From positions 67,121 through 131,120 of IMG/VR virus record IMGVR_UViG_3300002141_000156: a stretch of 64,000 nt of DNA. One strand, written 5' to 3'. The stretch comes from a virus. The notes under the pieces are model-generated. The model ran no database searches. It was given only the letters and a program-made list of their open reading frames with translations, and was not told where the DNA came from. Shown in pieces: positions 9,105-54,151 of this stretch. Every line of letters begins with the position of its first letter. The first letter of the stretch is position 1. Position numbers and translations under genes: made by a program.

Positions 9105-11081
9105 ATGAAGGATATAATGTCAAATAGGGGTGCATTCACATCCCGTAAGATTTCCAGAATGAGCGGTGATGATGACGATACGAATAGTTCGATATGGACG
9201 ACCGTTCGCCTTCATAAATTACTAGATGAAATTGATAATGGTCTTGACGTTAAAGGATTACATAATTCTCCATTCAGAGATAATGATATTAATCTTAAAC
9301 GTGCAAATCTACCTTTTGAATATACACCAGGCGAATGGCAAGAACTTTCCAAATGTAAAGAAGATATTATTTACTTCGCATATAATTACTGTTTTATTCA
9401 AACACCAGATGGGGTCAAACTACTTAAAGATGCCGGCGGATTACGTGATTTCCAGGAACAGATCTTACTTTCGTTCCAAGGAAACAAATACAATATCTTA
9501 ATGGCAAGTCGTCAGATTGGTAAATCTGTGACTTCTGCAATCTTTATCCTGTGGTTTACTCTATTCCATGCAGAAAAAACTGCACTACTTGTTGCAGATA
9601 ATTTCACAACTACTCGAGAATTATTAGATAAGTTTAGAATTTCACTAGATAATCTTCCATTCTTTATGAAACCGGGTATTAAACATGTCAATACCGGTAA
9701 TATAAAGTTTGATAATGATAGTCGTGTTGTCGGTAGAACAACCACTAAAAAATCAGGTATTGGTTTAACGGTTAATGTGTTGTATATTGATGAGTTTGCA
9801 CATATTGACCAGGCAAAATTAGATGAATTCTATCGTACAATATTCCCAACTATTTCGGCTGACTCTAATTCAAAGATTATAATTACTTCTACCCCAAACG
9901 GTAAAAATAAATTCCATGATATTTGGGTTGATGCGATTGAAAATAGAAGTAATTATGTTGCACTTAGAGTTGACTGGTGGCAAGTACCTGGTCGTGATGA
10001 AAAATGGAAAGAAGACACAATTGCCGATATTGGTTCACTCGATGACTTTAACCAGGAGTACGGCCTTCAGTTTTTCTCATCTGATCAATTATTACTTGGG
10101 TCAAACGAACTTAAGAAATTAAACAATATTAGAGTAGATTATAAGAATTCTAATTTTGCGTTAGACGAGGATCGTATGTATATCAACGATTATCTAAAAC
10201 TGCATCCGCGATATGCAAAGCGCCAATTATCAGACTTTAAAAATGACTCAGCAAATTATCTATTCAGTATAGATACAGCAGATGGAGTCGGCGGTGACTA
10301 TTCAGTTTTAAATATCTACAAAGTAGTTGCGATGCCAGTTTCTGAACTCTTAAAGAAGAAGGATGCTGTTCGAAACGAATTAGATGCAATTTCACTAGTT
10401 CAGATTGGAATATTTAGAACGAATGAACTTGATGTTACTCAATTTGCAGCAGCAGCTGAATTTATAATATATCGAATATTTAATCCTAACAAAGTTAGGA
10501 TAGTCCTGGAGATGAATCACAAAGGTGAGATAGTTCACTCAAGATGTGTAGATAATTCTGAATACTGGACCGGTCAGTTTGTTCATACCAAACATACTGA
10601 AATGGCAGTTGTTCCAAAGATTGGATTACGACTTGGACCAACTAATAAAATAAAATATTGTGAAAGATTTAAACACCTAGTTACAATTAATAAGATTATT
10701 CCAAATGAATACTTAACTTTCATGGAACTGATGTCCTTTGGTAAAACTAAAGGCGGAGCATATCGTGGTCAAAATGGAAATGACGATTTAGCTATGACCT
10801 GCATAAATATTGCACCATTTTTTGACTCAACACAGTTCTGGGATATAGGAATTGAGACATTTGAAAATTCTTCAGCAGAATATCGTAAAGAGCTTGAAGA
10901 AAAAATATTTAACGTGTATCGTGAAAATAATAAAAAGAGTTTGTATAATTTTGATGAATTACGTCGATTAAACAGCACTCAGCATACATCTGGTGACGGA
11001 CCGAGAGTTCAGCCTAATGTGTTTGATATGGAATCCATGGAACACATGAAAAAAATAAAGGATAGATTTTTTAAAGATTAA
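9105..11081 (+). CDS. terL: Terminase large subunit (T4 gp17-like)
   Basis: Walker A ASRQIGKS, Walker B LYIDEFAH, IIITSTPNG coupling motif, FNQEY, nuclease IDTADGVGGDYS and NDDL. Confidence 0.95.
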   Translation: MKDIMSNRGAFTSRKISRMSGDDDDTNSSIWTTVRLHKLLDEIDNGLDVKGLHNSPFRDNDINLKRANLPFEYTPGEWQELSKCKEDIIYFAYNYCFIQTPDGVKLLKDAGGLRDFQEQILLSFQGNKYNILMASRQIGKSVTSAIFILWFTLFHAEKTALLVADNFTTTRELLDKFRISLDNLPFFMKPGIKHVNTGNIKFDNDSRVVGRTTTKKSGIGLTVNVLYIDEFAHIDQAKLDEFYRTIFPTISADSNSKIIITSTPNGKNKFHDIWVDAIENRSNYVALRVDWWQVPGRDEKWKEDTIADIGSLDDFNQEYGLQFFSSDQLLLGSNELKKLNNIRVDYKNSNFALDEDRMYINDYLKLHPRYAKRQLSDFKNDSANYLFSIDTADGVGGDYSVLNIYKVVAMPVSELLKKKDAVRNELDAISLVQIGIFRTNELDVTQFAAAAEFIIYRIFNPNKVRIVLEMNHKGEIVHSRCVDNSEYWTGQFVHTKHTEMAVVPKIGLRLGPTNKIKYCERFKHLVTINKIIPNEYLTFMELMSFGKTKGGAYRGQNGNDDLAMTCINIAPFFDSTQFWDIGIETFENSSAEYRKELEEKIFNVYRENNKKSLYNFDELRRLNSTQHTSGDGPRVQPNVFDMESMEHMKKIKDRFFKD

Positions 11082-11433: not shown

Positions 11434-12060
11434 ATGGGATATGACGAAATTAACAACAAAATTAATTTAAGAATAAAAGAAATTTCTGAAAAACTATTAA
11501 CCGATGCAATTACTGAAGTTGAGCGTAATGAGCTTGCTTCTCTAATTTATCCAAAATTAAAGTTTTTCGTTTGGAAGTTCTGTAAAAATGAATTTGATAC
11601 AGAAGAAGCATTACAATACAGTCTTAAGCGCATCTTTAAAAATGTTGCACAGTTTAAATTTGAAAAAGGTAGATTTACTACATGGATCTACACAATTACT
11701 CGAAATGAGACCCTGTATTACTTATATCATAAGAAAAAGCATACTCATCTTGATGTTGATTGTCTCTATCAGAAAATAGACAAAGCCGATGATTTTGAAA
11801 CAACTCACGCATATCATCTTGCTGTTGAAGAGATATATGCAAAAACCTTAGCTGAAATCTACAATATTGATGATGAGATGATGAAAAACATCGCAATCGA
11901 TAAGATGATAAAAAATAAAAAGGTTAAACAAATTGCAATGAATTATCAAATAAATGAAAATACTGTAAAGACCAAACTTCGTAAAATCAGAGTTGATATT
12001 AGAGAAGCAGTAATTAAAGATAATCCTGACCTTGAAGAAAAAATACGAACAATACTATGA
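11434..12060 (+). CDS. ECF/sigma-70-family RNA polymerase sigma factor
   Basis: Region 2 EEALQ....[23 protein letters not shown]; region 4 [23 protein letters not shown]. Confidence 0.85.
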
Positions 12061-19061: not shown

Positions 19062-21062
19062 ATGAGAAAAAGTAGATTTGTAAATTTAACAGCATATTGT
19101 ATTGTCGAATACATGTTTGACCAACTTGGGTCATTAGATTTTTATACAGATTCATTTGTATTACTTCAAAATAATCATACTGATTCACACCAAATCTTAA
19201 ATAGTGATAGTTCATTTTCATCTACTAAGAATATCCAAGACTTAACAGTTATTCCGCTTGGCAACAATACATTTGCATATTTAGATAGTGAGAAGATACC
19301 AGATTATTTAGCATACGACACGGAAATCACACAGACCCCAATAACTGGATATAATGTTGTGATGGATCAAGTCAGATTTCATTTTGTTGCAGGTTTCGAG
19401 TTTGATAATTTTAAAGCACTAATTCTAAGTATTAAACACTCAGAAAATGACGGCAAATCAAATGTTTTTGCAAATATCCTACTTGCACCTGAAACAATCG
19501 CTCAATTAATTAGTTTTAATCCAAAACCATTATTTTTAGCAAATGCAACATATGATCGATACATTGATCTTATGGTTCCATCAATTAAGAATATTAACGA
19601 AGACTACAAAACATCGCCAGTCCCAGCATCAACATTTGTTGCGGCAATTACTCCAAATACGATCGGGTCAACTGGATTTATCTATAACAATCAAATCTCG
19701 ATTGGTCTAGGAGAATGTGGAAGACGTAAGCCGATGTACACAAACGCTGGCGTAACATATGATACGTTTGAAGTAACTGAATATTTTGAAGCACAACTTT
19801 CACAAAGCAATGAATTTGACAATGTTGGTGCATATGTCAATGAGTCAATAGACGGTGATTTTATCGAATTCTATATGACATTTAACGCCGGTTTCCCATC
19901 TGATTTAATTAGCATCCTAAATCAAAGAAATCCAGCAAACGACTGGATTATTATCCATCAAATTAGTGTATTTGAACAAGTAGGCACAGGTTTCAATAAT
20001 ACTGCTCGATTCGTCTTCTTCCAAGAGGAAAGATTTGATGAACCAAATACATTTAGACCAGTATTACGAAATGCGAATGAAGCAGTAAGTATGTCAATCG
20101 ATTATTTAGCACGATTAACGAACCGGTTAAATGGTGAGCAAATTATTCGCGAAGCGTCATTCTCATTGGTTTCTCCAAAGAAATATGGTAAGAAACTAAT
20201 CACAATGCCATTACAAGATAAGCCGCAATCCCAAAAAGTTTACAATAAAATTATCAAGAAGAGCTTTGAGGCAAGTAAATTATTTAGTGAGCCTAAGATG
20301 AATACTACTATTCCGGCATCAATTAATCCTGTGAGTACTGTTGTTCAGACTGAATATGTGCCGATCTTTTTTAATAATAGTAGCATATCAGTATCGAATG
20401 TAAGTTCTCTAATTAAAACCAAAGATTCCCTAGAAGAAGTAATCTTCTCCCAAGGAAAACTTAGATTTATTCTTTCGCCATTTGATAATATTATCAAATT
20501 GAAAGTATACACGACAAATAGCTCAAGTAGTAAAGTTACACAAGTTCCATTGGACTTAAATATAAATTCTGCAAAATATCGGTTGGTATTTGAAACAGAC
20601 AGCGGTAAAGTGCCTATTACAAACATGAATAATGCCAAGATTGAAAATTTGTCAACTGGTGTAATTGCATTTACTGTTTCAAAAAAAGATAGCGAGACTA
20701 TTTTGCAAGCACAAAACCGGACAGCCTATCTAATATCTGTTGGACAGGATGGAACTGAGACCTTAATTTATACTGGAGAGTGGAGAAAAGCGACTGAACA
20801 GTCAGATATCGACCTTGCAATTGCTACTGCAAAAGAAGAAGGAAATGCCTTGGCGCAGCTTCAATCTACCTTAAATGAGATTAAAGCACAGACGTTAGTC
20901 AAAGATACAGCATCTAGTGTTATTCCGAATACTATAATTAAGAAGACCGCAGTCGCGCCAGTCGTTAATAAATTTGGAGTACCATTACCACAAAGGGTTT
21001 CCCCAAATTCAGCAAATGCTGGAAGAGGGTCAAGTTCAGAAGCGGGTGTCGGAAAAGGGTAA
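19062..21062 (+). CDS. Large hypothetical (probable structural) protein
   Basis: 666 aa ORF in the late operon. Confidence 0.65.
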   Translation: MRKSRFVNLTAYCIVEYMFDQLGSLDFYTDSFVLLQNNHTDSHQILNSDSSFSSTKNIQDLTVIPLGNNTFAYLDSEKIPDYLAYDTEITQTPITGYNVVMDQVRFHFVAGFEFDNFKALILSIKHSENDGKSNVFANILLAPETIAQLISFNPKPLFLANATYDRYIDLMVPSIKNINEDYKTSPVPASTFVAAITPNTIGSTGFIYNNQISIGLGECGRRKPMYTNAGVTYDTFEVTEYFEAQLSQSNEFDNVGAYVNESIDGDFIEFYMTFNAGFPSDLISILNQRNPANDWIIIHQISVFEQVGTGFNNTARFVFFQEERFDEPNTFRPVLRNANEAVSMSIDYLARLTNRLNGEQIIREASFSLVSPKKYGKKLITMPLQDKPQSQKVYNKIIKKSFEASKLFSEPKMNTTIPASINPVSTVVQTEYVPIFFNNSSISVSNVSSLIKTKDSLEEVIFSQGKLRFILSPFDNIIKLKVYTTNSSSSKVTQVPLDLNINSAKYRLVFETDSGKVPITNMNNAKIENLSTGVIAFTVSKKDSETILQAQNRTAYLISVGQDGTETLIYTGEWRKATEQSDIDLAIATAKEEGNALAQLQSTLNEIKAQTLVKDTASSVIPNTIIKKTAVAPVVNKFGVPLPQRVSPNSANAGRGSSSEAGVGKG

Positions 21063-21132
21063 CTAGCTCCTGGAAATTATGAATATCTGCTCTAAAAGTC
21101 AGATAAATAAACTAAAATAAATCATTACCAAA

Positions 21133-22731
21133 ATGAACGAATTCTTGCAAAAAATGCTAGCCGAACTCAATTCTAATAAGTCTGTGAGCTCTGAGCCGTT
21201 AGTAAAGATGATAGTTGAATCAGCAAATAAATCGATTGCATTAGGAGAAAACGTTGCGCTGGTTAGTGCAAATCTTAAAACTGGACTAGCATATATCAAC
21301 GAAACTATTAAAAATCCTGCGCTAAGTACACTATTAACTAAATTTAACGAGAGTGCAAACACACCAGAGGCAAAAGTTACAGCTATTGCAAAAGAAGTAA
21401 ATCTTTTAGCTAAAATTACTTTACTTAAGGAATCTAACGCATATAGTAATCCATTAGTTAAAACTAAGATTGATTCGTTTGAATCATATTTGAACAAAGG
21501 TGCAGTGGATTTTGCAGTCTGTGTATCATTTATTAACATGTTCGAACAATATAATTACGATGTAACCATTAAAAAATGTGTTGCTTCTGTAAAAAAATAC
21601 GTAAATGAAAACCAATCAAAACTTGCAGTATTGAATACAATCTATCAAATGGATTCATTAAATTCTCCAGTTTATGCGGGTGTAAGTTCTGACTTAAAGA
21701 GTATGCTGATTAATGAAAGCTATACCGCGGATATCCTTAAGGTTAAATATGGAACGTCTGTTCCCGCTGTCTCTACATTAATTAATGATCTTTTAATTAT
21801 TGAATCAACTCAAACTGGAAACTTTACTCTAGGTGAAGGTAATTTCGATACTAAGATAAGCAATCTAATTTCTCCAGCAATACAGACGGCCGATGGATTA
21901 CTTGTTTATACAGACAATCGATTCTTATCAATTCGTGAAGCTAGTGGATTACTTGGAAATGAATCAAAAGTTCACTTAGATGGAGCATTTAAAATTGCAG
22001 AGGTTGACCCAAATTATGTAAAAACAGCATATGGTAATTTCTACGATCTTTGTGAAGCATATGCAACTCTAGGTTTTGCTAAATCTGACGACGGTCTTGG
22101 TGTTGAATCAAAATCAATTAGAAACTTTAAACTTGGTTTCAAAGTAAACGAAGAAAAAGGAGTTGACTTGTATGTAAATGGCTCAAAGGTCGGAACTCCA
22201 AATGCAGTAAATGTATCTGAAGCTCTAGCATTAGAGAACAATATCGTTAAAACAAAAGTTTCAAAGATTATTGAAAATACAAATTGTCTATTCAACTTTG
22301 ATTTTATTAAAGAAATTTCAAATGATAGAACAATGGCAGAAGCTGTACTTGTTAAATTAAATGACAAATATTTTATCTGTGAAAAAGTAAATACTTCTGA
22401 TCGAGTATGGAATGAAGTTAATGAACTTGAAATGTTTGAGTTCTTTAAAAATAAATTCAACTATGACATTAGCCCTATTTTTGGAACTGAAATTAACAAA
22501 GAAGTTGCTAAGATTATGCAGATTGAAGAAAAGAAACGTGATATTCTAGCAAATATAGAAAAATTAGAAGGATCAGCTAAGAAATTAACTGAATCTTGTG
22601 CAAATACTGATCTTAACGCGCAAAGCATCAACAAACTTGAAGACATTAGAGAATCTGTTGAAAAAACAATCAATAATTTAAAAGAAGAATTTATCCGAAT
22701 TGATCTATTAAAAAAAAAGGAACTAGCGTAA
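21133..22731 (+). CDS. Probable head/core protein; zero-frame product of a predicted -1 frameshift gene
   Basis: 532 aa after late promoter at 21103; many [ILV]xE-S/T sites (IVES, INET, LKES, INES, IIES); ends L-K-K-K on an A9G run. Confidence 0.7.
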   Translation: MNEFLQKMLAELNSNKSVSSEPLVKMIVESANKSIALGENVALVSANLKTGLAYINETIKNPALSTLLTKFNESANTPEAKVTAIAKEVNLLAKITLLKESNAYSNPLVKTKIDSFESYLNKGAVDFAVCVSFINMFEQYNYDVTIKKCVASVKKYVNENQSKLAVLNTIYQMDSLNSPVYAGVSSDLKSMLINESYTADILKVKYGTSVPAVSTLINDLLIIESTQTGNFTLGEGNFDTKISNLISPAIQTADGLLVYTDNRFLSIREASGLLGNESKVHLDGAFKIAEVDPNYVKTAYGNFYDLCEAYATLGFAKSDDGLGVESKSIRNFKLGFKVNEEKGVDLYVNGSKVGTPNAVNVSEALALENNIVKTKVSKIIENTNCLFNFDFIKEISNDRTMAEAVLVKLNDKYFICEKVNTSDRVWNEVNELEMFEFFKNKFNYDISPIFGTEINKEVAKIMQIEEKKRDILANIEKLEGSAKKLTESCANTDLNAQSINKLEDIRESVEKTINNLKEEFIRIDLLKKKELA

Positions 22732-22976
22732 ACGAAGGTAAAGCAAAAGAGCGCAAATTTAAAACTGGCGATCCAGTCGAAGTAAAAGGAAAACTTGGTA
22801 AAGTAATTGGAGTAAATGGAATAACTGGTGAATACATAGTAATGTGTGGCTCAAAAAGTGAACGATATCCAGAATCAGAAGTACATACGATCGCTCCTAC
22901 TAAAAAGAAAAGCTCAAAAACAGACAATATAACTCGAAAGACTCGACCTAAAGAAAAATCACTTAATGTATTATAA
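22716..22976 (+). CDS. -1 frame C-terminal extension of 21133..22731 (86 aa, SH3/KOW-like domain plus basic tail)
   Basis: KGTSVNEGKAKERKFKTGDPVEVKGKLGKVIGVNGITGEYIVMCGSKSERYPESEVHTIAP...SLNVL-stop; frame is closed by TGA at 22701 with no start codon before the domain; A_AAA_AAG at 22713-22719. Confidence 0.65.
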   Translation, partial: KGTSVNEGKAKERKFKTGDPVEVKGKLGKVIGVNGITGEYIVMCGSKSERYPESEVHTIAPTKKKSSKTDNITRKTRPKEKSLNVL

Positions 22977-22980
22977 AATA

Positions 22981-23010
22981 AAAAAGGAGCAAAATGCTCC
23001 TTTTTTATTT
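22981..23010 (+). terminator. Rho-independent terminator
   Basis: aaaaaggagca-aaa-tgctcctttttt, 5 bp after the stop of the -1 frame extension. Confidence 0.8.
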
Positions 23011-23169
23011 TAGATTAGCCAGAAAGATAGTATATTAGTTTCATGAAAAGACTATTATTAAGAACACTGTACGTGCTTATAATATGTAAAGTAAAACACA
23101 TTAAATATGTAAAATAATCAAAACTGATTTGTGCTACACAGTACAATAAGTAAACACTTAATTTTTAAT

Positions 23170-31355: not shown

Positions 31356-31546
31356 TGATTATCATAAATTGTAACAATAAAAAAATAGACTCATGTCTTA
31401 AACTATATCGACAAAAAAGCGATCGATTAGGTATTGTTAGTGAGCTTCGAGATCGCAAGACCTTTAAGAAACCATCTGTTAAGAAGAGAGAAATTTTACA
31501 ATTAGCAAAATATAAGAATATAAAGTATGTCAATTCTGAACTTTAG
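31355..31546 (+). CDS. rpsU: 30S ribosomal protein bS21
   Basis: IDSCLKLYRQK....GIVSELRDRKTFKKPSVKKR matches the bS21 signature; GTG start. Confidence 0.9.
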   Translation: MIIINCNNKKIDSCLKLYRQKSDRLGIVSELRDRKTFKKPSVKKREILQLAKYKNIKYVNSEL

Positions 31547-32033
31547 TGAATATATCAACGAAGGTTACGAAGACATTAATTCTAAATTGGAAAAGAGGAT
31601 GGCGGCCGGCGTCGCAATAATCTATCAAAATAAAATATTATTGGTACACCCAACTGGCGGTACCTGGCAACGTGGAATTTGTGGAATCCCAAAAGGAAGC
31701 ATGGAATCTGGTGAAGAACCCATCACTGCGGCTCTTCGTGAATTACGTGAAGAAACTGGAATCATATTAGGAGCAAGTCAACTTGATCCCAGTCCAGAGC
31801 TAGTTAATTTTTATAGTAAAACTCGTAAAGTTGAACGACAACTCATCTATTTTATCTGTAAAATAGATAATCTTTCTGAGATCGGTTTAGAAACAGAAAG
31901 AATACCTAATCGTCAACTTCAAATCGAAGAAGTTGATTGGGCAAAATTTGTTACTCCAGAAGAAGCATATTCACTCACCGTGCGATCACAACTAATTATA
32001 TTAGACCGACTTCTTGTGTCAGGTTTGAGATAA
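31527..32033 (+). CDS. NUDIX hydrolase with CTS-like leader
   Basis: Nudix box PKGSMESGEEPITAALRELREETGI; leader MSILNFSEYINEG. Confidence 0.9.
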   Translation: MSILNFSEYINEGYEDINSKLEKRMAAGVAIIYQNKILLVHPTGGTWQRGICGIPKGSMESGEEPITAALRELREETGIILGASQLDPSPELVNFYSKTRKVERQLIYFICKIDNLSEIGLETERIPNRQLQIEEVDWAKFVTPEEAYSLTVRSQLIILDRLLVSGLR

Positions 32034-40616: not shown

Positions 40617-41102
40617 TTACCTGCCACCTAATAAAAAAGAAAGACCGTTTACTTGGATTAGGTCAAATAGAGGGTCAGTCGATCCAGCATAAATAGGAAT
40701 GCTGGTGGTTTGTGAAATAACTTCAGTCGTATCGTTATCTAAATTCAGTTGCATTGCAAATGGCTCGCCATAATAGCTAAATTCAAATGTTAAAAATGAG
40801 TCATCTATATTATGAGATAGTTCATCTGCGCCTGCATCTTCTAAAAAATCACTAATAGACTCAATACTATCATAAGTATTAACTCTGAATTGTTCTTCTG
40901 GAGTAAGTTCAAAATCTTTTAATTCGCCAAACTCATCAACATATGCTTCATTGATGAATTCAGCAAACGATAACACAAAAGACTCGGTAAGTCCTTTGCG
41001 TTTTGTTTTTGCAAATTTAGTTATTTCTTTCACCAGGTCTTGATTTTCTTTTTTAATTCCGGAGGCAACCGTCTTTTTATCATGCTGGTTATTCTTCAGC
41101 AA
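40617..41102 (-). CDS. Hypothetical protein with internal CTS-like motif
   Basis: LTESFVLSFAEFINEAY; acidic C-terminal part. Confidence 0.55.
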   Translation of the reverse strand: MLKNNQHDKKTVASGIKKENQDLVKEITKFAKTKRKGLTESFVLSFAEFINEAYVDEFGELKDFELTPEEQFRVNTYDSIESISDFLEDAGADELSHNIDDSFLTFEFSYYGEPFAMQLNLDNDTTEVISQTTSIPIYAGSTDPLFDLIQVNGLSFLLGGR

Positions 41103-43242
41103 TATATTTGCGTAACTTGTTTAGAATTTGTTTTTTTATTTTTTCACCACCAGCAAGTGATCCGGTTCCAACTGATTCAACATCGCCATCTAATGTATCA
41201 CCAGATTCATCCTCACTATATAATGCCATAAGTCGCTTTACTGAATTAACAGTGATTGGATTATCTAGGTCAGTGTCGTCCTCTGATTCACCGTTTTCAT
41301 ATTTTTGAATAATTGTAAGAATACTTTGTAGATTAGAAACGGTGACAATTCCGTCTAAATCATCAACTAGTGTATCTACATCGGATTTCATATCAGGATC
41401 CTTGTATTTTTTTTTCGTAACCGCGGGGTTCGTAGAAGCATGCCCGCAAGCTGTAGCAACCCCTGTGAAATCTTTAGCCGCAATTATTGCAGCAATGTTA
41501 TCGCACGTCCACTTTAGGGCAGTACCAACATTCGCGGTAATAAGGAACTTCTCATCTAATGTTGTCGTTGTTGATAACAGTGCTAGGTCTAAATTTTGTG
41601 CTTTAGCATAATTGTAAGCAGCAACTGTAGTAAAGTTTCCATCATTCCAAAAAATAAGGTCAGTCCAGTCAGTTTTTATCGTATACATAGTCCAGGTTCC
41701 ATCTGAATTTGTCCTTAAGGCCGCTCCAGGTTTCTCTGTAAGACAGCTAAACTTAGACCAATCAGTCTGGCTAGATGCAGGGGTCGCTTTTTTCTTATCT
41801 ACAGTGCCCTGGTTACCGGTCGATACCTTTCCAGAAGATCTGGCATTTGCTGCGGCAAAGTTAAATTGTTCAACTAATCGTTCAACTAATTGTCCACGTA
41901 ATCCTAAATAACTTTCTACAATTTTTTTATTTCCGGTCTGTAATTTATTTACTAATTCTGATGTAATAACTGTTCCGTCTTCATCTTTTAAGTCACACGC
42001 TATCTTTGCAAGTTCAATCATCGCTTCAGTAGTTGGTCCATAATTTCCATCTGCTCCATATCCTTTAAATTTAATAAAGGTTGGATTTGTTGCCATGCCG
42101 TCACTAAATTTATCAATAATTAATTGTTGTACTTGTTTAAGTACTGCATCACCTTTAGCAGCAGTAGCTTTTTTAATTCCGCCGTCTGGAAGTTTGATAT
42201 CTCCAGTAGTTACTTCTCCACCGCCGATCGCTTTAAGGAAGTCTTCCATTTTGAAATTAGCAGGAAGAGCTGGAGTCACTGGTGCTGGAGTCACTGGTGC
42301 TGGAGTAACTGGAGTCGGTACAGGTTGTGCTTCATTAATACGTTTTCCAGTAAATTTACGGTTACGTGAAGAGTTTTGTGCAGTTACTTCTGCGCTAGGC
42401 GCCGGTGCAAGTGCTAAAATTTTATCTACTACTTCTTGAGTAATTTGAGTACGTGGTTTTGCTCTACCGTATTTGTCTGTGAATGTACCTAGTCCCAAAC
42501 CTGCAATTATTCCTTTAACAAGTAAAACGGTACTATCACCAATCTTAGATGCTTCAAGTTCATCAGCTGACTTATTAATAAGCTCAAGTACTTTTTTGTC
42601 AGTAAATACTTTTGATGTAGCTAATCCAGCAACTAGCGCATCAATTGCTTTAAACAGTGGCATCTCAGCAGTAAGTTTAGAAAGATCCGCAATTAATACA
42701 GGAGCGGCTAATTTCACCATGCCAGCGGCCGTGGCAGCTGCAGGTGCTTCTGCTGTGCTATTTAAAAGACTCTTATCTGAATTTGCAAGCACGGCTTTTG
42801 CGTCTGGCGCTTGTGCAAGTTTTGCAGCAGCATCGTCAGATAATATTTTTGTTTCTGGAGTAACTCCTTTGAAACTTGCTCTCTTTTGAATTGAGAAAAC
42901 AATAACTTGTTTATTATCTGTTTCTTTTTTTACATTGTAAGTAAAAAAGCTATCTTTATAAAAAGTAGCAAGATCCTGCAATGCTGGATATTCGCGACTA
43001 AAATTAGTCAAATCGTGACCTTTAAGGAAAGCAACAATTCCATCCATTAGGGTTGGATCGATCGTGCCGTCTGCGCCAACCATATCACGGTCGTTTACTG
43101 CTTTTACTTTAAAGCTATTTCCGTCAAGGTATTTAACTTTAACCTTATGGTTAGTACCAGCGATAGGTTCAGTTTCAGTAATGTCCCAAAAAAGTCCTTC
43201 ATTAAGCTGTTTCCATTTTGCAAAATTTGAAATAATATACAT
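41089..43242 (-). CDS. Large multi-domain late protein with a peptidoglycan-binding-like segment
   Basis: Leader MYIISNFAKWKQLNEG; LKQVQ..I...GADGNYGPTT; PVTPA repeats; internal INEA/IVES/LVEQ sites. Confidence 0.65.
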   Translation of the reverse strand: MYIISNFAKWKQLNEGLFWDITETEPIAGTNHKVKVKYLDGNSFKVKAVNDRDMVGADGTIDPTLMDGIVAFLKGHDLTNFSREYPALQDLATFYKDSFFTYNVKKETDNKQVIVFSIQKRASFKGVTPETKILSDDAAAKLAQAPDAKAVLANSDKSLLNSTAEAPAAATAAGMVKLAAPVLIADLSKLTAEMPLFKAIDALVAGLATSKVFTDKKVLELINKSADELEASKIGDSTVLLVKGIIAGLGLGTFTDKYGRAKPRTQITQEVVDKILALAPAPSAEVTAQNSSRNRKFTGKRINEAQPVPTPVTPAPVTPAPVTPALPANFKMEDFLKAIGGGEVTTGDIKLPDGGIKKATAAKGDAVLKQVQQLIIDKFSDGMATNPTFIKFKGYGADGNYGPTTEAMIELAKIACDLKDEDGTVITSELVNKLQTGNKKIVESYLGLRGQLVERLVEQFNFAAANARSSGKVSTGNQGTVDKKKATPASSQTDWSKFSCLTEKPGAALRTNSDGTWTMYTIKTDWTDLIFWNDGNFTTVAAYNYAKAQNLDLALLSTTTTLDEKFLITANVGTALKWTCDNIAAIIAAKDFTGVATACGHASTNPAVTKKKYKDPDMKSDVDTLVDDLDGIVTVSNLQSILTIIQKYENGESEDDTDLDNPITVNSVKRLMALYSEDESGDTLDGDVESVGTGSLAGGEKIKKQILNKLRKYIAEE

Positions 43243-53797: not shown

Positions 53798-54151
53798 TTA
53801 TTTTTTTGAGCTCCAACGAATTAGTAATTCACCAACCACTTCAATTTTACCCATCGTCTCCTGAAATGGGATCTGGTCCTCAGGTTCAAACGACTTTAGG
53901 ATATTAGTTAGTTCCTTATTTAGTGTGACCAGCTCCTTCTTAGCGGCCGTTGCATCCCACTTACCAGCGGCTGCCTTCTTATAATAAGGAAGCTTAACTA
54001 CAAAATGGTGATATGTTAATAGAGAAGTTCCGCCCTTGGCTTTTGCGCCATCCGCAATTTTGGTGGCTCCGGCAAGCCTCTTCTCTGCAAACTCCTGAAA
54101 GGAGATGTGCTCCTTTGCTTCAAATATAAAATCGCTAAAGTTTTGAATCAT
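53798..54151 (-). CDS. Hypothetical protein with CTS-like leader
   Basis: MIQNFSDFIFEA; LTYHHFVVKLPYY. Confidence 0.6.
   Translation of the reverse strand: MIQNFSDFIFEAKEHISFQEFAEKRLAGATKIADGAKAKGGTSLLTYHHFVVKLPYYKKAAAGKWDATAAKKELVTLNKELTNILKSFEPEDQIPFQETMGKIEVVGELLIRWSSKK

What the first reader, a model, noticed from the sequence alone, without database searches (positions are those of the whole stretch)
22701..23010. Hidden -1 programmed frameshift adds an SH3/KOW-like domain and basic tail to a 532-aa late protein
Seen: 21133..22731 ends TTA AAA AAA AAG GAA CTA GCG TAA, containing A_AAA_AAG (22713-22719) in the correct phase. The -1 frame is closed by TGA at 22701 and has no start codon before the domain. 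It then runs 86 codons (KGTSVNEGKAKERKFKTGDPVEVKGKLGKVIGVNGITGEYIVMCGSKSERYPESEV...KKKSSK...RKTRPKEKSLNVL) and stops 5 bp before a clean terminator, so it is probably on the same transcript. Known: A_AAA_AAG is the efficient bacterial -1 heptamer (E. coli dnaX, IS3 family). FKxGDxV..G.V.G is an SH3/KOW-like pattern. Inference: two isoforms are made. The VNE/G just after the shift fits a T4 gp21-type protease site, so the extension might be released as a small basic domain inside the head. Phage frameshifts are best known in tail chaperone and capsid/tail genes, which this gene does not resemble.
Basis: partly seen in the sequence, partly recalled or inferred. Interest (0 to 1): 0.78.

Follow-up and report, generated by a model that had tools for sequence, protein, structure and literature searches.

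The report
Conserved A9 recoding site adds SH3-like tail
In an uncultured freshwater giant phage, a run of nine A's at the end of a 532-residue gene, kept across very distant relatives, lets part of the protein continue in the -1 frame into a small basic SH3-like module; this is a new, well-supported example of a known recoding trick.

Summary
The ORF 21133..22731 ends TTA AAA AAA AAG GAA CTA GCG TAA. The -1 frame is shut by TGA at 22701, has no start codon, runs to TAA 22974-22976 and abuts a strong terminator.

The case for real recoding:
- The A run (A9 in 14, A8 in 1) is present in all 15 distinct relatives' junctions where the module lies start-less in the -1 frame, and in 0 of 28 other junctions.
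- Those proteins are only 46-66% identical outside the window's own clade.
- In a sister clade the same module is a separate gene with its own start and a cleavable-looking N-terminal leader.
- AlphaFold and fold searches give an SH3/Tudor/KOW-type barrel followed by a disordered basic tail.

On mechanism I favour RNA-polymerase slippage over ribosomal -1 frameshifting:
- Run length 9 is kept in two codon phases.
- There is no conserved stimulatory RNA structure and no Shine-Dalgarno usage.
- One of three metatranscriptome contigs carries A10, while every DNA assembly carries A9.

Release of the module by a T4-type prohead protease at V-N-E|G is plausible but inferred.

The scan met the same device before on other DNA (e1-5345762, e1-6048408).

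The parts
21133..22731 (+). Zero-frame gene for the 532-aa carrier protein (short isoform). It has an N-terminal helical domain, a central beta domain and a C-terminal antiparallel helical hairpin (residues about 452-531) that ends exactly at the recoding site.
   Evidence: ORF list. 131 homologs, mostly 529-534 aa. AlphaFold2 mean pLDDT 86.9, pTM 0.71. No Pfam, PHROG or NCBIfam family. Only helical-hairpin matches in PDB.
22710..22718 (+). A9 run, the recoding site. It contains the in-phase heptamer A_AAA_AAG at 22713-22719.
   Evidence: It is the only A9 in the 131-kb record. It is invariant in 5 of 5 close assemblies. A9 or A8 is present in 15 of 15 start-less -1 junctions and 0 of 28 others. 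One RNA contig carries an extra A here.
22719..22976 (+). -1-frame extension of 85 codons plus TAA. The frame is open from 22704, after TGA at 22701-22703. It has no start codon of its own before the domain.
   Evidence: It is conserved at protein level in relatives, 36-87% identity. A profile built only from 29 stand-alone database proteins hits the six-frame window once, at 22743-22970 in this frame, E 2.7e-15.
22728..22736 (+). V-N-E codons, followed by Gly. This is the candidate prohead-protease site 6 residues after the Lys run. The zero-frame stop TAA (22729-22731) lies inside these codons.
   Evidence: The equivalent [LV]-[NT]-E is present in every start-less extension aligned. L-[KN]-E closes the leader of the stand-alone forms. 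T4 gp21 cuts after L/I-X-E (PMC9026906, passages read). Cleavage itself is inferred.
22764..22889 (+). SH3-like five-stranded beta-barrel (residues 21-62 of P0001).
   Evidence: AlphaFold2 gives strands at 24-27, 30-37, 44-48, 51-55 and 60-62, with block pLDDT 86-88. VIA-align best matches are Tudor, PWWP, chromo and NusG-KOW barrels, Z 7.5-6.7, rmsd 1.3-2.0 over 47-50 residues. Foldseek best matches are the MutS2 SH3/KOW region, R67 DHFR, Tudor and Spt5 KOW, E 4e-3 to 0.1.
22890..22973 (+). Lys/Arg-rich C-terminal tail, predicted disordered.
   Evidence: pLDDT 58-71 with no secondary structure. Basic tails are present in all forms of the module.
22974..23012 (+). Intrinsic-terminator-type hairpin (A tract, GGAGCA/TGCTCC stem, T tract) closing the transcription unit.
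   Evidence: Fold -20.7 kcal/mol, z -7.3. Relatives keep the stem while the loop letters differ. RNA contigs cover the gene and extension and end at 22939-22989, with no cover at 22998-23071 in 2 of 3 RNA runs and depth 0.86 in the third.

Best explanation
This is a programmed recoding site. The DNA carries nine A's at the end of the 532-aa gene.

Most likely mechanism: the bacterial-type RNA polymerase slips on this run and puts one extra A into a share of the transcripts. Ordinary translation of those A10 mRNAs reads through ...L-K-K-K into the -1 frame. The result is a long isoform of about 614 residues beside the 532-aa short one. Ribosomal -1 slippage on the in-phase A_AAA_AAG gives the identical protein and may contribute.

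What is added: a short linker holding a Glu-ending protease-type site (S-V-N-E|G), an SH3/Tudor/KOW-type beta-barrel and a disordered Lys/Arg-rich tail.

In a sister clade of phages the same module is a separate small gene. That gene has its own start and a conserved 17-residue N-terminal leader ending in L-K/N-E, which resembles the cleavable capsid-targeting leaders of T4 internal proteins. My inference is that in the window's clade the module has lost both start and leader. It rides on the 532-aa protein instead, in a ratio set by the slip rate. It is then probably cut free by a T4 gp21-type prohead protease.

Shown: the site, the frame, their conservation, the fold class and the alternative gene arrangement.
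Hinted: mRNA heterogeneity.
Inferred: head location, cleavage and nucleic-acid binding by the module.
For: Site and frame.

Not an assembly error:
- A9 is in 5 of 5 aligned assemblies.
- A9 is in the DNA contig of run X1.
- In the 90% cluster, the 10 full-length members of the 15 listed are all 532 aa, on more than 50 contigs.

Conservation, over 43 distinct junctions:
- All 15 with the module start-less in the -1 frame have a run of A9 (14) or A8 (1).
- All 28 others (15 with their own start, 13 with no module) have at most A6.
- The recoded lineages are deep branches of the family tree, with end branches up to 0.67 changes per site.

The module is real:
- A profile of stand-alone proteins only hits the window once, in this frame, E 2.7e-15.
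- There is one copy per record in 6 of 6 records, always beside the 530-aa gene.

For slippage rather than ribosomal shift:
- Run length 9 is kept whether the run starts at codon position 3 (12 junctions) or position 1 (3 junctions). The in-phase heptamer is therefore A_AAA_AAG in 11 and the much less shifty A_AAA_AAA in 4 (shiftiness from PMC5009743).
- There is no conserved structure beside the run: window z -0.39 downstream and -0.32 upstream, and 10 of 13 lineages within |z|<1.5 downstream.
- There are no Shine-Dalgarno motifs upstream of 25 genes inspected.
- The RNA contig of run X17 (depth 42) carries one extra A in the run. RNA contigs of X15 and X16 and the DNA contig of X1 carry A9. 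X15 and X17 share nearly the same SNPs.
- Runs of 9 A/T are the classic efficient slippage length for bacterial RNA polymerase (PMC5009743).

Fold.

Protease idea:
- L/I-X-E specificity of T4 gp21 and the 10-residue CTS come from PMC9026906.
- gp21-type protease and gp23-type capsid genes are present in 2 of 4 relatives' records searched.
- [LIVM]-x-E lies 5-18 residues after the core in 11 of 12 in-frame-extended homologs.
Against: - The RNA evidence is contigs, not reads. Two of three RNA contigs show A9. The tool warns that DNA can sit in RNA libraries. Reverse-transcriptase or PCR slippage, or a rare A10 strain, could give the one A10 contig.
- A_AAA_AAG, the best bacterial -1 heptamer, is in phase in 11 of 15 junctions, so ribosomal shifting is not excluded.
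- One lineage has only A8 (L016).
- pN/pS of the extension between the window and its 93% relative is only 0.49 over 23 differences, and the other frames are hardly worse.
- The window's own record has no gp21-type protease or gp23, but it is about 51% complete.
- The window's site is V-N-E, not L/I-x-E.
- Nothing shows that the 532-aa protein is a virion protein. It has no family, no informative fold match and no homolog in three cultured phages searched.
Confidence: 0.55

Rival explanations
1. Ribosomal -1 programmed frameshifting on A_AAA_AAG is the main route. tRNA-Lys in the P and A sites slips back one base on unaltered A9 mRNA, and translation continues in the -1 frame.
For: The heptamer is in the correct phase. 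It is A_AAA_AAG in 11 of 15 start-less junctions. A_AAA_AAG is the most shift-prone heptamer in E. coli (PMC5009743). Two of three RNA contigs carry plain A9.
Against: Four of 15 junctions offer only A_AAA_AAA in phase yet keep the run at 8-9. The three extra A's upstream of the heptamer are conserved without need. No conserved downstream hairpin and no upstream SD-like element were found. The likely host group does not use SD pairing; this is an inference, the Bacteroidota-infecting terminase relatives and the Tenacibaculum-phage fold matches. One RNA contig has A10.
Confidence: 0.3
2. There is no recoding. Either the true sequence is A10 (a plain in-frame fusion misassembled as A9), or the -1 ORF is a decaying remnant of a once separate gene.
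For: Homopolymers are error-prone. One contig (RNA run X17) does show A10. pN/pS in the close pair is a weak 0.49.
Against: A9 appears in 5 of 5 aligned assemblies from different samples, in the X1 DNA contig, and in 14 of 15 distinct junctions across proteins 46-99% identical. No fused protein of about 615 aa was found among 120 listed homologs, in the 'longer' search or among the 40 hits of the exhaustive profile search. These are weak negatives, because fused forms could hide inside clusters. The frame stays open and the domain scores E 1e-20 to 1e-28 in all lineages.
Confidence: 0.03
3. The module is translated on its own, by re-initiation or from a non-canonical start, not as a fusion.
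For: In the sister clade the module is a separate gene whose start overlaps or follows the upstream stop (L029 TAATG, L032 ATGA, L074 GTG at +3). Translational coupling is therefore the ancestral or alternative arrangement.
Against: None of the 15 start-less junctions has an ATG, GTG or TTG between the upstream -1-frame stop and the domain. In L018 the frame opens only 13 nt before the zero-frame stop, inside the A run. The leader present in all stand-alone forms is missing. The perfect association with A8-9 runs would be left unexplained.
Confidence: 0.04

Closest known systems
Thermus thermophilus dnaX: programmed transcriptional slippage on a run of nine
   Same: A homopolymer of 9 inside a coding region; bacterial RNA polymerase adds extra A's; two protein isoforms in a set ratio from one gene; no RNA structure needed (PMC5009743, passages read).
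   Different: There the slipped mRNAs give the shorter product (early stops in the other frames). Here the slipped mRNA gives the longer product with an added folded domain. This is a phage gene of unknown function, not a replicase. Slippage here is only hinted by one RNA contig.
Shigella spa13 (and mxiE) transcriptional slippage
   Same: Slippage gives a share of the product a C-terminal extension encoded in another frame; for spa13 this is 25-30% with a 112-aa extension (PMC5009743). This is the closest match in outcome.
   Different: Those are type III secretion genes of a bacterium. The run and its context there were not compared here.
E. coli dnaX and IS3-family -1 ribosomal frameshifting on A_AAA_AAG
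   Same: The same heptamer, in phase, at the end of the upstream frame.
   Different: dnaX and IS elements rely on an upstream SD-like element and a downstream hairpin or pseudoknot. Neither is conserved here. Here the run is 9 long in two codon phases.
Phage recoding in structural genes: lambda G/GT tail assembly chaperone and T7 gene 10A/10B
   Same: [quoted passage not shown]
   Different: The gene family and position differ: it is not next to a tape-measure gene and is not a capsid protein. The slip site is a long A run rather than a G_GGA_AAG or G_GU-type heptamer. The added part is an autonomous domain that exists as a separate gene in relatives.
T4 internal proteins (IPI-III, Alt) with capsid-targeting sequences
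   Same: Small basic proteins carry a short N-terminal leader that ends in L/I-x-E and is removed by the gp21 protease (PMC9026906). The stand-alone forms of this module have such a leader ending L-K/N-E. Relatives encode gp21- and gp23-type genes.
   Different: There is no sequence homology to T4 IPs, and the resemblance of the leaders was judged by eye. In the window the leader is absent and is replaced, I infer, by fusion to a carrier through recoding. No such arrangement turned up in the papers I searched.

Membership tests
Programmed transcriptional realignment on A/T runs (Thermus dnaX, Shigella spa13 type) | Homopolymeric run about as long as the RNA-DNA hybrid (9) inside the coding region | tested here: met
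   A9 at 22710-22718. A9 in 14 and A8 in 1 of 15 start-less junctions.
Programmed transcriptional realignment on A/T runs (Thermus dnaX, Shigella spa13 type) | Run length conserved irrespective of codon phase | tested here: met
   The run starts at codon position 3 in 12 junctions and at position 1 in 3, and is 9 long in both groups.
Programmed transcriptional realignment on A/T runs (Thermus dnaX, Shigella spa13 type) | mRNA population heterogeneous in run length over homogeneous DNA | tested here: inconclusive
   One of 3 RNA-run contigs has A10 and 2 of 3 have A9. The DNA contig and all DNA assemblies have A9. These are contigs only, with no raw reads.
Programmed transcriptional realignment on A/T runs (Thermus dnaX, Shigella spa13 type) | Gene transcribed by a multisubunit bacterial RNA polymerase | not tested
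   The only hint is a sigma-factor-like gene at 11434-12057 (phrog_1740, E 2.6e-7).
-1 programmed ribosomal frameshift cassette (dnaX / IS3 type) | X_XXY_YYZ heptamer in the zero-frame phase, overlapping an open -1 frame | tested here: met
   A_AAA_AAG at 22713-22719, with the -1 frame open from 22704.
-1 programmed ribosomal frameshift cassette (dnaX / IS3 type) | Stimulatory element: downstream hairpin or pseudoknot, or upstream SD-like sequence | tested here: not met
   Downstream 70 nt: z -0.39 in the window, and 10 of 13 lineages within |z|<1.5, with no shared hairpin. Upstream 40 nt: z -0.32. No SD motifs in the genome's leaders. Pseudoknots were not searched.
-1 programmed ribosomal frameshift cassette (dnaX / IS3 type) | Trans-frame protein made from unaltered mRNA | not testable with these tools
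   Needs proteomics together with RNA sequencing.
SH3-like beta-barrel superfold (SH3 / Tudor / KOW) | Small five-stranded barrel | tested here: met
   AlphaFold2 gives five strands at pLDDT 86-88. VIA-align Z 7.5 (PHF19 Tudor, rmsd 1.3, 50 aligned) and Z 6.7 (NusG KOW, rmsd 1.4-1.5, 47-48 aligned). Z below 8 is middling by the tool's own note, but the top 50 rows are nearly all this superfold.
KOW motif family (Pfam PF00467) | Sequence match at or above Pfam's gathering score | tested here: not met
   One of 39 members matches, at E 0.05. The PDB profile search gives L24 at E 0.052. More members match other SH3-type models below threshold: MS_channel_2nd 17, MSSS 7, SH3_15 5. DUF5097 matches in 21 of 39, best E 4.4e-4.
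T4-type prohead-protease substrate / capsid-targeted internal protein | L/I-x-E cleavage motif at the module boundary | tested here: inconclusive
   The window has V-N-E. Start-less relatives mostly have L-N-E or L-T-E (two have V-N-E), and stand-alone forms have L-K/N-E. Eleven of 12 in-frame-extended homologs have [LIVM]-x-E within 18 residues of the core end. The motif is short and the sequences are related.
T4-type prohead-protease substrate / capsid-targeted internal protein | Phage encodes a gp21-type (Peptidase_S77) protease | tested here: inconclusive
   Absent from the window's own record, which is 51% complete. Present above cut-off in 2 of 4 relatives' records, the two most complete at 81% and 70%, next to a gp23-type capsid gene.
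T4-type prohead-protease substrate / capsid-targeted internal protein | Protein found in proheads or virions and processed | not testable with these tools
   No cultured relative: 0 of 3 cultured phages searched hold a homolog, and tblastn against 50,697 phage records gave no match.

The most novel reading that the evidence does not exclude
Recoding as a cargo-loading device. In this clade of T4-related giant phages the small basic SH3-like protein has given up its own start codon and capsid-targeting leader. It is smuggled into the prohead as a slippage-made C-terminal passenger on the 532-aa protein, then cut loose at V-N-E|G by the prohead protease. RNA-polymerase slip frequency on A9 would thus set the copy number of an internal, probably DNA-binding, head protein. 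The sister clade with the separate leader-bearing gene would be the natural control.
Probability: 0.3. Interest if true: 0.75.

Novelty: new member of a known kind. Interest (0 to 1): 0.58.

Why it matters
- The site is missed by gene callers. Public catalogues hold only truncated fragments of the module for the recoded lineages (67-aa and 54-aa calls starting inside the domain), so a conserved domain of a widespread freshwater giant-phage family goes unannotated.
- It adds a deeply conserved recoding site in a phage gene that is neither a tail chaperone nor a capsid protein.
- Evolution has provided both solutions side by side: a separate gene with a leader, and a recoded fusion. This is a ready-made comparative test of why phages use recoding.
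- The likely hosts do not use Shine-Dalgarno pairing, and public metatranscriptomes cover the gene. Slippage versus ribosomal shifting can therefore be settled from existing raw reads.

Tried and rejected
Searches that led nowhere:
- blastn against the phage collection gave only 38-nt matches of the terminator stretch to nine Pseudomonas giant phages. tblastn of the 532-aa protein gave no match.
- The 532-aa protein has no Pfam, PHROG or NCBIfam family.
- The ESM Atlas gave no usable hit.
- The PDB profile search gave only coiled-coil designs at residues 452-523.
- Foldseek against PDB gave nothing meaningful, TM at most 0.15.
- VIA-align wide matched only the C-terminal helical hairpin.
- BFVD gave only uncharacterised phage proteins, including distant matches to Tenacibaculum phage PTm1 and pT24 proteins (E 3e-16 and 2e-9, TM 0.2-0.35).
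- Profile A2 found no homolog in Flavobacterium phage MaF61, Chryseobacterium phage MA9V-1 or Sphingomonas phage PAU. The tool notes that an empty answer there shows little.
- Peptidase_S77 and Gp23 were not found in the window's own half-complete record.

Weak or indecisive tests:
- pN/pS on the one informative close pair was indecisive.
- The N-terminal leader regex gave 6 hits against 2.3 +/- 1.3 in shuffles. That is a modest enrichment and the pattern was designed after seeing examples.
- The 'longer' search and the representative search found no 530-aa+SH3 in-frame fusion. Both are weak negatives.
- In the RNA runs, the stretches without cover (21000-21073, 22998-23071) and the contig ends are only a weak hint of transcript ends.

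Considered and rejected: assembly error, decaying pseudogene and independent initiation (see rivals). Ribosome sliding on poly(A) (listed, abstract only) was not pursued, because nine A's are fewer than I recall that work used.

Literature: searches returned no paper on this protein family or on slippage-made head cargo. That is four keyword searches of the held library, not proof of absence. No supplementary file was opened. Supplements of the SPN3US and T4 proteomics papers could bear on cleavage motifs.

Rows dropped:
- In one search, 68 junctions went in. Twenty exact duplicates and 5 genes running off their contig were dropped, leaving 43.
- For L011, L014 and L016 the script's printed open frame was wrong, because the profile alignment crossed a stop. 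One search gives the correct frames.
- The tree used 36 of the 43. L010 and L013 (near-identical to the window), L037 and L038 (near-identical to L036 and L034), and L071, L083 and L090 (partial genes or not classified) were left out.
- In one search I fetched 12 of the 18 listed homologs of 569 aa or more.
Full report
**What is in the sequence**

The window is the last 64 kb of a 131,120-base IMG/VR virus record estimated 51% complete. It has 34.7% G+C, a T4-type large terminase at 9105-11081, a baseplate wedge gene and a sigma-factor-like gene.

At the finding:
- The ORF 21133..22731 (532 aa) ends TTA AAA AAA AAG GAA CTA GCG TAA.
- The nine A's are 22710-22718, and A_AAA_AAG at 22713-22719 is in phase.
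- The -1 frame has TGA at 22701-22703 and is then open to TAA at 22974-22976.
- No ATG, GTG or TTG occurs before the conserved domain.
- A hairpin at 22974-23012 (-20.7 kcal/mol, z -7.3) with a T tract follows directly.
- This is the only A9 in the whole record; one T9 lies elsewhere.

**It is not an assembly error**

- Four related viral contigs (93-99% protein identity) have the identical A9 and the same open -1 frame.
- The DNA contig of run X1 has A9.
- The 90%-identity cluster of the protein has 30 members. Of the 15 listed, the 10 full-length ones are all 532 aa, seen on more than 50 contigs.

**The family and the junction survey**

The protein has 131 homologs in the metagenomic protein collection. 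Most are 529-534 aa, and 18 of the 120 listed are 569-733 aa. The 12 long ones I read carry unrelated in-frame C-terminal add-ons.

I fetched DNA for 34 viral and 33 metagenome loci and classified the gene's 3' junction by script. After dropping 20 duplicates and 5 truncated genes, 43 distinct junctions remain:

| Junction type | Count | A run at gene end |
|---|---|---|
| Module homologous to the window's extension, in the -1 frame, overlapping the gene's end, no start codon | 15 | A9 in 14, A8 in 1 |
| Same module with its own ATG, GTG or TTG | 15 | at most A6 |
| No module within 700 nt | 13 | at most A6 |

The 15 own-start junctions come in three arrangements. The start may overlap or abut the upstream stop, the module may follow a roughly 40-aa lipoprotein-like ORF, or it may form the C-terminal part of a roughly 250-aa protein.

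The association of 'no start' with 'long A run' is therefore 15 of 15 against 0 of 28. The recoded lineages are only 46-66% identical to the window's protein outside its own clade. On a maximum-likelihood tree they are deep, long branches, whereas all own-start forms fall in one clade with 100/100 support. One origin of the recoded state is not excluded (36 of 43 rows used).

**The -1 ORF is a real domain**

- Ten extensions align at 36-87% identity.
- 51 small database proteins (54-95 aa) belong to the same family.
- A profile built from 29 of those stand-alone proteins alone hits the six-frame translation of the window exactly once, at 22743-22970 in the -1 frame, E 2.7e-15.
- Each of six records searched has one copy, always beside the 530-aa gene.
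- AlphaFold2 with a 39-row alignment gives a five-stranded barrel at pLDDT 86-88 for residues 21-60, with a low-confidence linker and tail.
- Foldseek's best PDB rows are the MutS2 SH3/KOW region, R67 DHFR, Tudor domains, Spt5/NusG KOW and ribosomal L24 (E 4e-3 to 0.1).
- VIA-align gives Z 7.5-6.7 for Tudor, PWWP, chromo and NusG-KOW barrels at rmsd 1.3-2.0 over 47-50 residues.
- Sequence matches to SH3-type Pfam models are all below threshold. L24 scores E 0.05 in the PDB profile search.

Membership in the KOW family proper is not met.

**Which mechanism**

Both routes give the same protein (...L-K-K-K-G-T-S-V-N-E-G...).

For ribosomal shifting:
- The best bacterial heptamer is in phase in 11 of 15 junctions.

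For RNA-polymerase slippage:
1. The run is 9 long whether it begins at codon position 3 (12 junctions) or position 1 (3 junctions). Four junctions therefore offer only A_AAA_AAA in phase, which the Atkins review reports as much less shifty in E. coli. Three of the window's nine A's are outside the heptamer yet conserved.
2. No structure is conserved next to the run. The window has z -0.39 downstream, and only 3 of 13 lineages fall below -1.5 downstream.
3. Gene leaders lack Shine-Dalgarno motifs. The nearest terminases include Prevotella, Flavobacterium and Chryseobacterium phages, and the nearest fold matches are Tenacibaculum phage proteins. This points to Bacteroidota hosts, where an SD-type stimulator could not act. 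The host assignment is an inference.
4. Runs of 9 A/T are the length at which bacterial RNA polymerase slips efficiently, as used in Thermus dnaX.
5. Of three metatranscriptome runs laid on the locus, the contig of X17 (depth 42) has one extra A in the run. Those of X15 and X16 have A9, as does the DNA run X1. X15 and X17 carry nearly the same SNPs, so they are the same strain.

The RNA contigs cover the gene plus the extension as one piece and stop before or within the terminator. These are contigs, the tool warns that DNA can be present in RNA libraries, and RT or PCR slippage is possible. I therefore treat the RNA result as a hint. I put slippage at about 0.55 and ribosomal shifting at about 0.3 as the main route; they are not exclusive.

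**What the extension may be for**

All stand-alone forms begin with a conserved 17-residue leader that ends L-K/N-E, followed by S/A-L-D-P. The start-less forms lack the leader but keep S-[LV]-[NT]-E just after the Lys run. Eleven of 12 in-frame-extended homologs have [LIVM]-x-E 5-18 residues after the core.

T4's gp21 protease cuts after L/I-X-E, and ten-residue leaders with that ending target T4 internal proteins to the prohead core (PMC9026906, passages read). Two of four relatives' records, the two most complete, encode a Peptidase_S77 domain and a gp23-type capsid protein side by side. The window's own half-record holds neither.

In the window's genome three unrelated ORFs share an N-terminus of the type N-F-x-x-[FY]-I-x-E: a NUDIX protein at 31527-32033, a 117-aa ORF at 53798-54151 on the minus strand, and an ORF upstream of the window. 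The 532-aa protein starts with a looser version ending L-A-E at residue 11, where E11 and L12 are nearly invariant.

From this I infer, without proof, that the 532-aa protein and the module are prohead-targeted. I also infer that in the window's clade the module enters as a passenger and is cut free.

The carrier itself remains of unknown function. The model is confident (pLDDT 86.9): a helical N-domain, a beta middle domain and a C-terminal helical hairpin whose end is the attachment point. No informative fold or family match was found.

**Comparison and novelty**

In mechanism this is closest to Thermus dnaX and Shigella spa13 slippage, or to E. coli dnaX frameshifting. In outcome it is closest to spa13 and to phage G/GT or T7 10A/10B extended isoforms. 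It is a new member of a known kind.

Four literature searches found nothing on this family.

Earlier notes of this scan describe the same device in this genome (e1-6160688) and in two other genomes (e1-6048408, e1-5345762), and the last had a follow-up that reached a like verdict. I saw those after my own tests, and they are not independent evidence.

New here are the RNA contig with A10, the 15-versus-28 junction table, the phase argument, the fold models and the link to gp21-type proteases in relatives.

Noticed in passing
window 41407-41415 (gene 41089..43242, minus strand): This is the only other 9-run in the record. T9 on the plus strand means A9 in the sense strand of a 717-aa gene, 108 codons before its end. 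Both alternative frames close within 6-8 codons, so slippage there would truncate the protein. The C-terminal part is not conserved in the relatives found (matches end near residue 476), so conservation could not be tested.
   Followed up: partly
L024, L025, L027, L031, L040-L042 (about 0-110 nt after the 530-aa gene's stop): In the sister clade a roughly 40-aa ORF with a hydrophobic signal-like start and a Cys (lipoprotein-like) sits between the 530-aa gene and the SH3-module gene, overlapping the upstream stop.
   Followed up: no
L020, L028, L040 (downstream of the 530-aa gene): A roughly 250-aa protein carries a leader-like N-terminus, an unrelated middle part of about 190 aa, a second x-E-S-L site and then the SH3 module. 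It looks like a small polyprotein with protease sites between modules.
   Followed up: no
window 31527-32033 (+), 53798-54151 (-), and G000:C1:63437-64402 (-): Three unrelated ORFs (one a NUDIX hydrolase, Pfam E 7.6e-14) share an N-terminus of the type N-F-x-x-[FY]-I-x-E, like cleavable capsid-targeting leaders. The regex gives 6 hits against 2.3 +/- 1.3 in shuffles.
   Followed up: partly
G001:C1:52985-56452 and G002:C1:55503-59079 (L091-L094): In two relatives the Peptidase_S77 (gp21-type) domain lies in an open frame of 663-666 aa just upstream of the gp23-type capsid gene. That is far longer than a plain protease, so it may be a protease-scaffold fusion.
   Followed up: no
window 22972-23009: The terminator stretch matches 38 nt at 95-97% in nine Pseudomonas giant phages of the PA5oct group, inside annotated genes there. 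This is probably chance similarity of an A/T-flanked GC hairpin.
   Followed up: no
whole window, gene leaders: None of 25 inspected gene starts has a Shine-Dalgarno motif; the leaders are A-rich with recurring AAATAA-type words.
   Followed up: partly
P0148 and P0184 (from contigs of recoded lineages): Public gene calls for the recoded lineages start inside the SH3 domain (67-aa and 54-aa products), so the module is mis-annotated wherever the recoding is used.
   Followed up: partly
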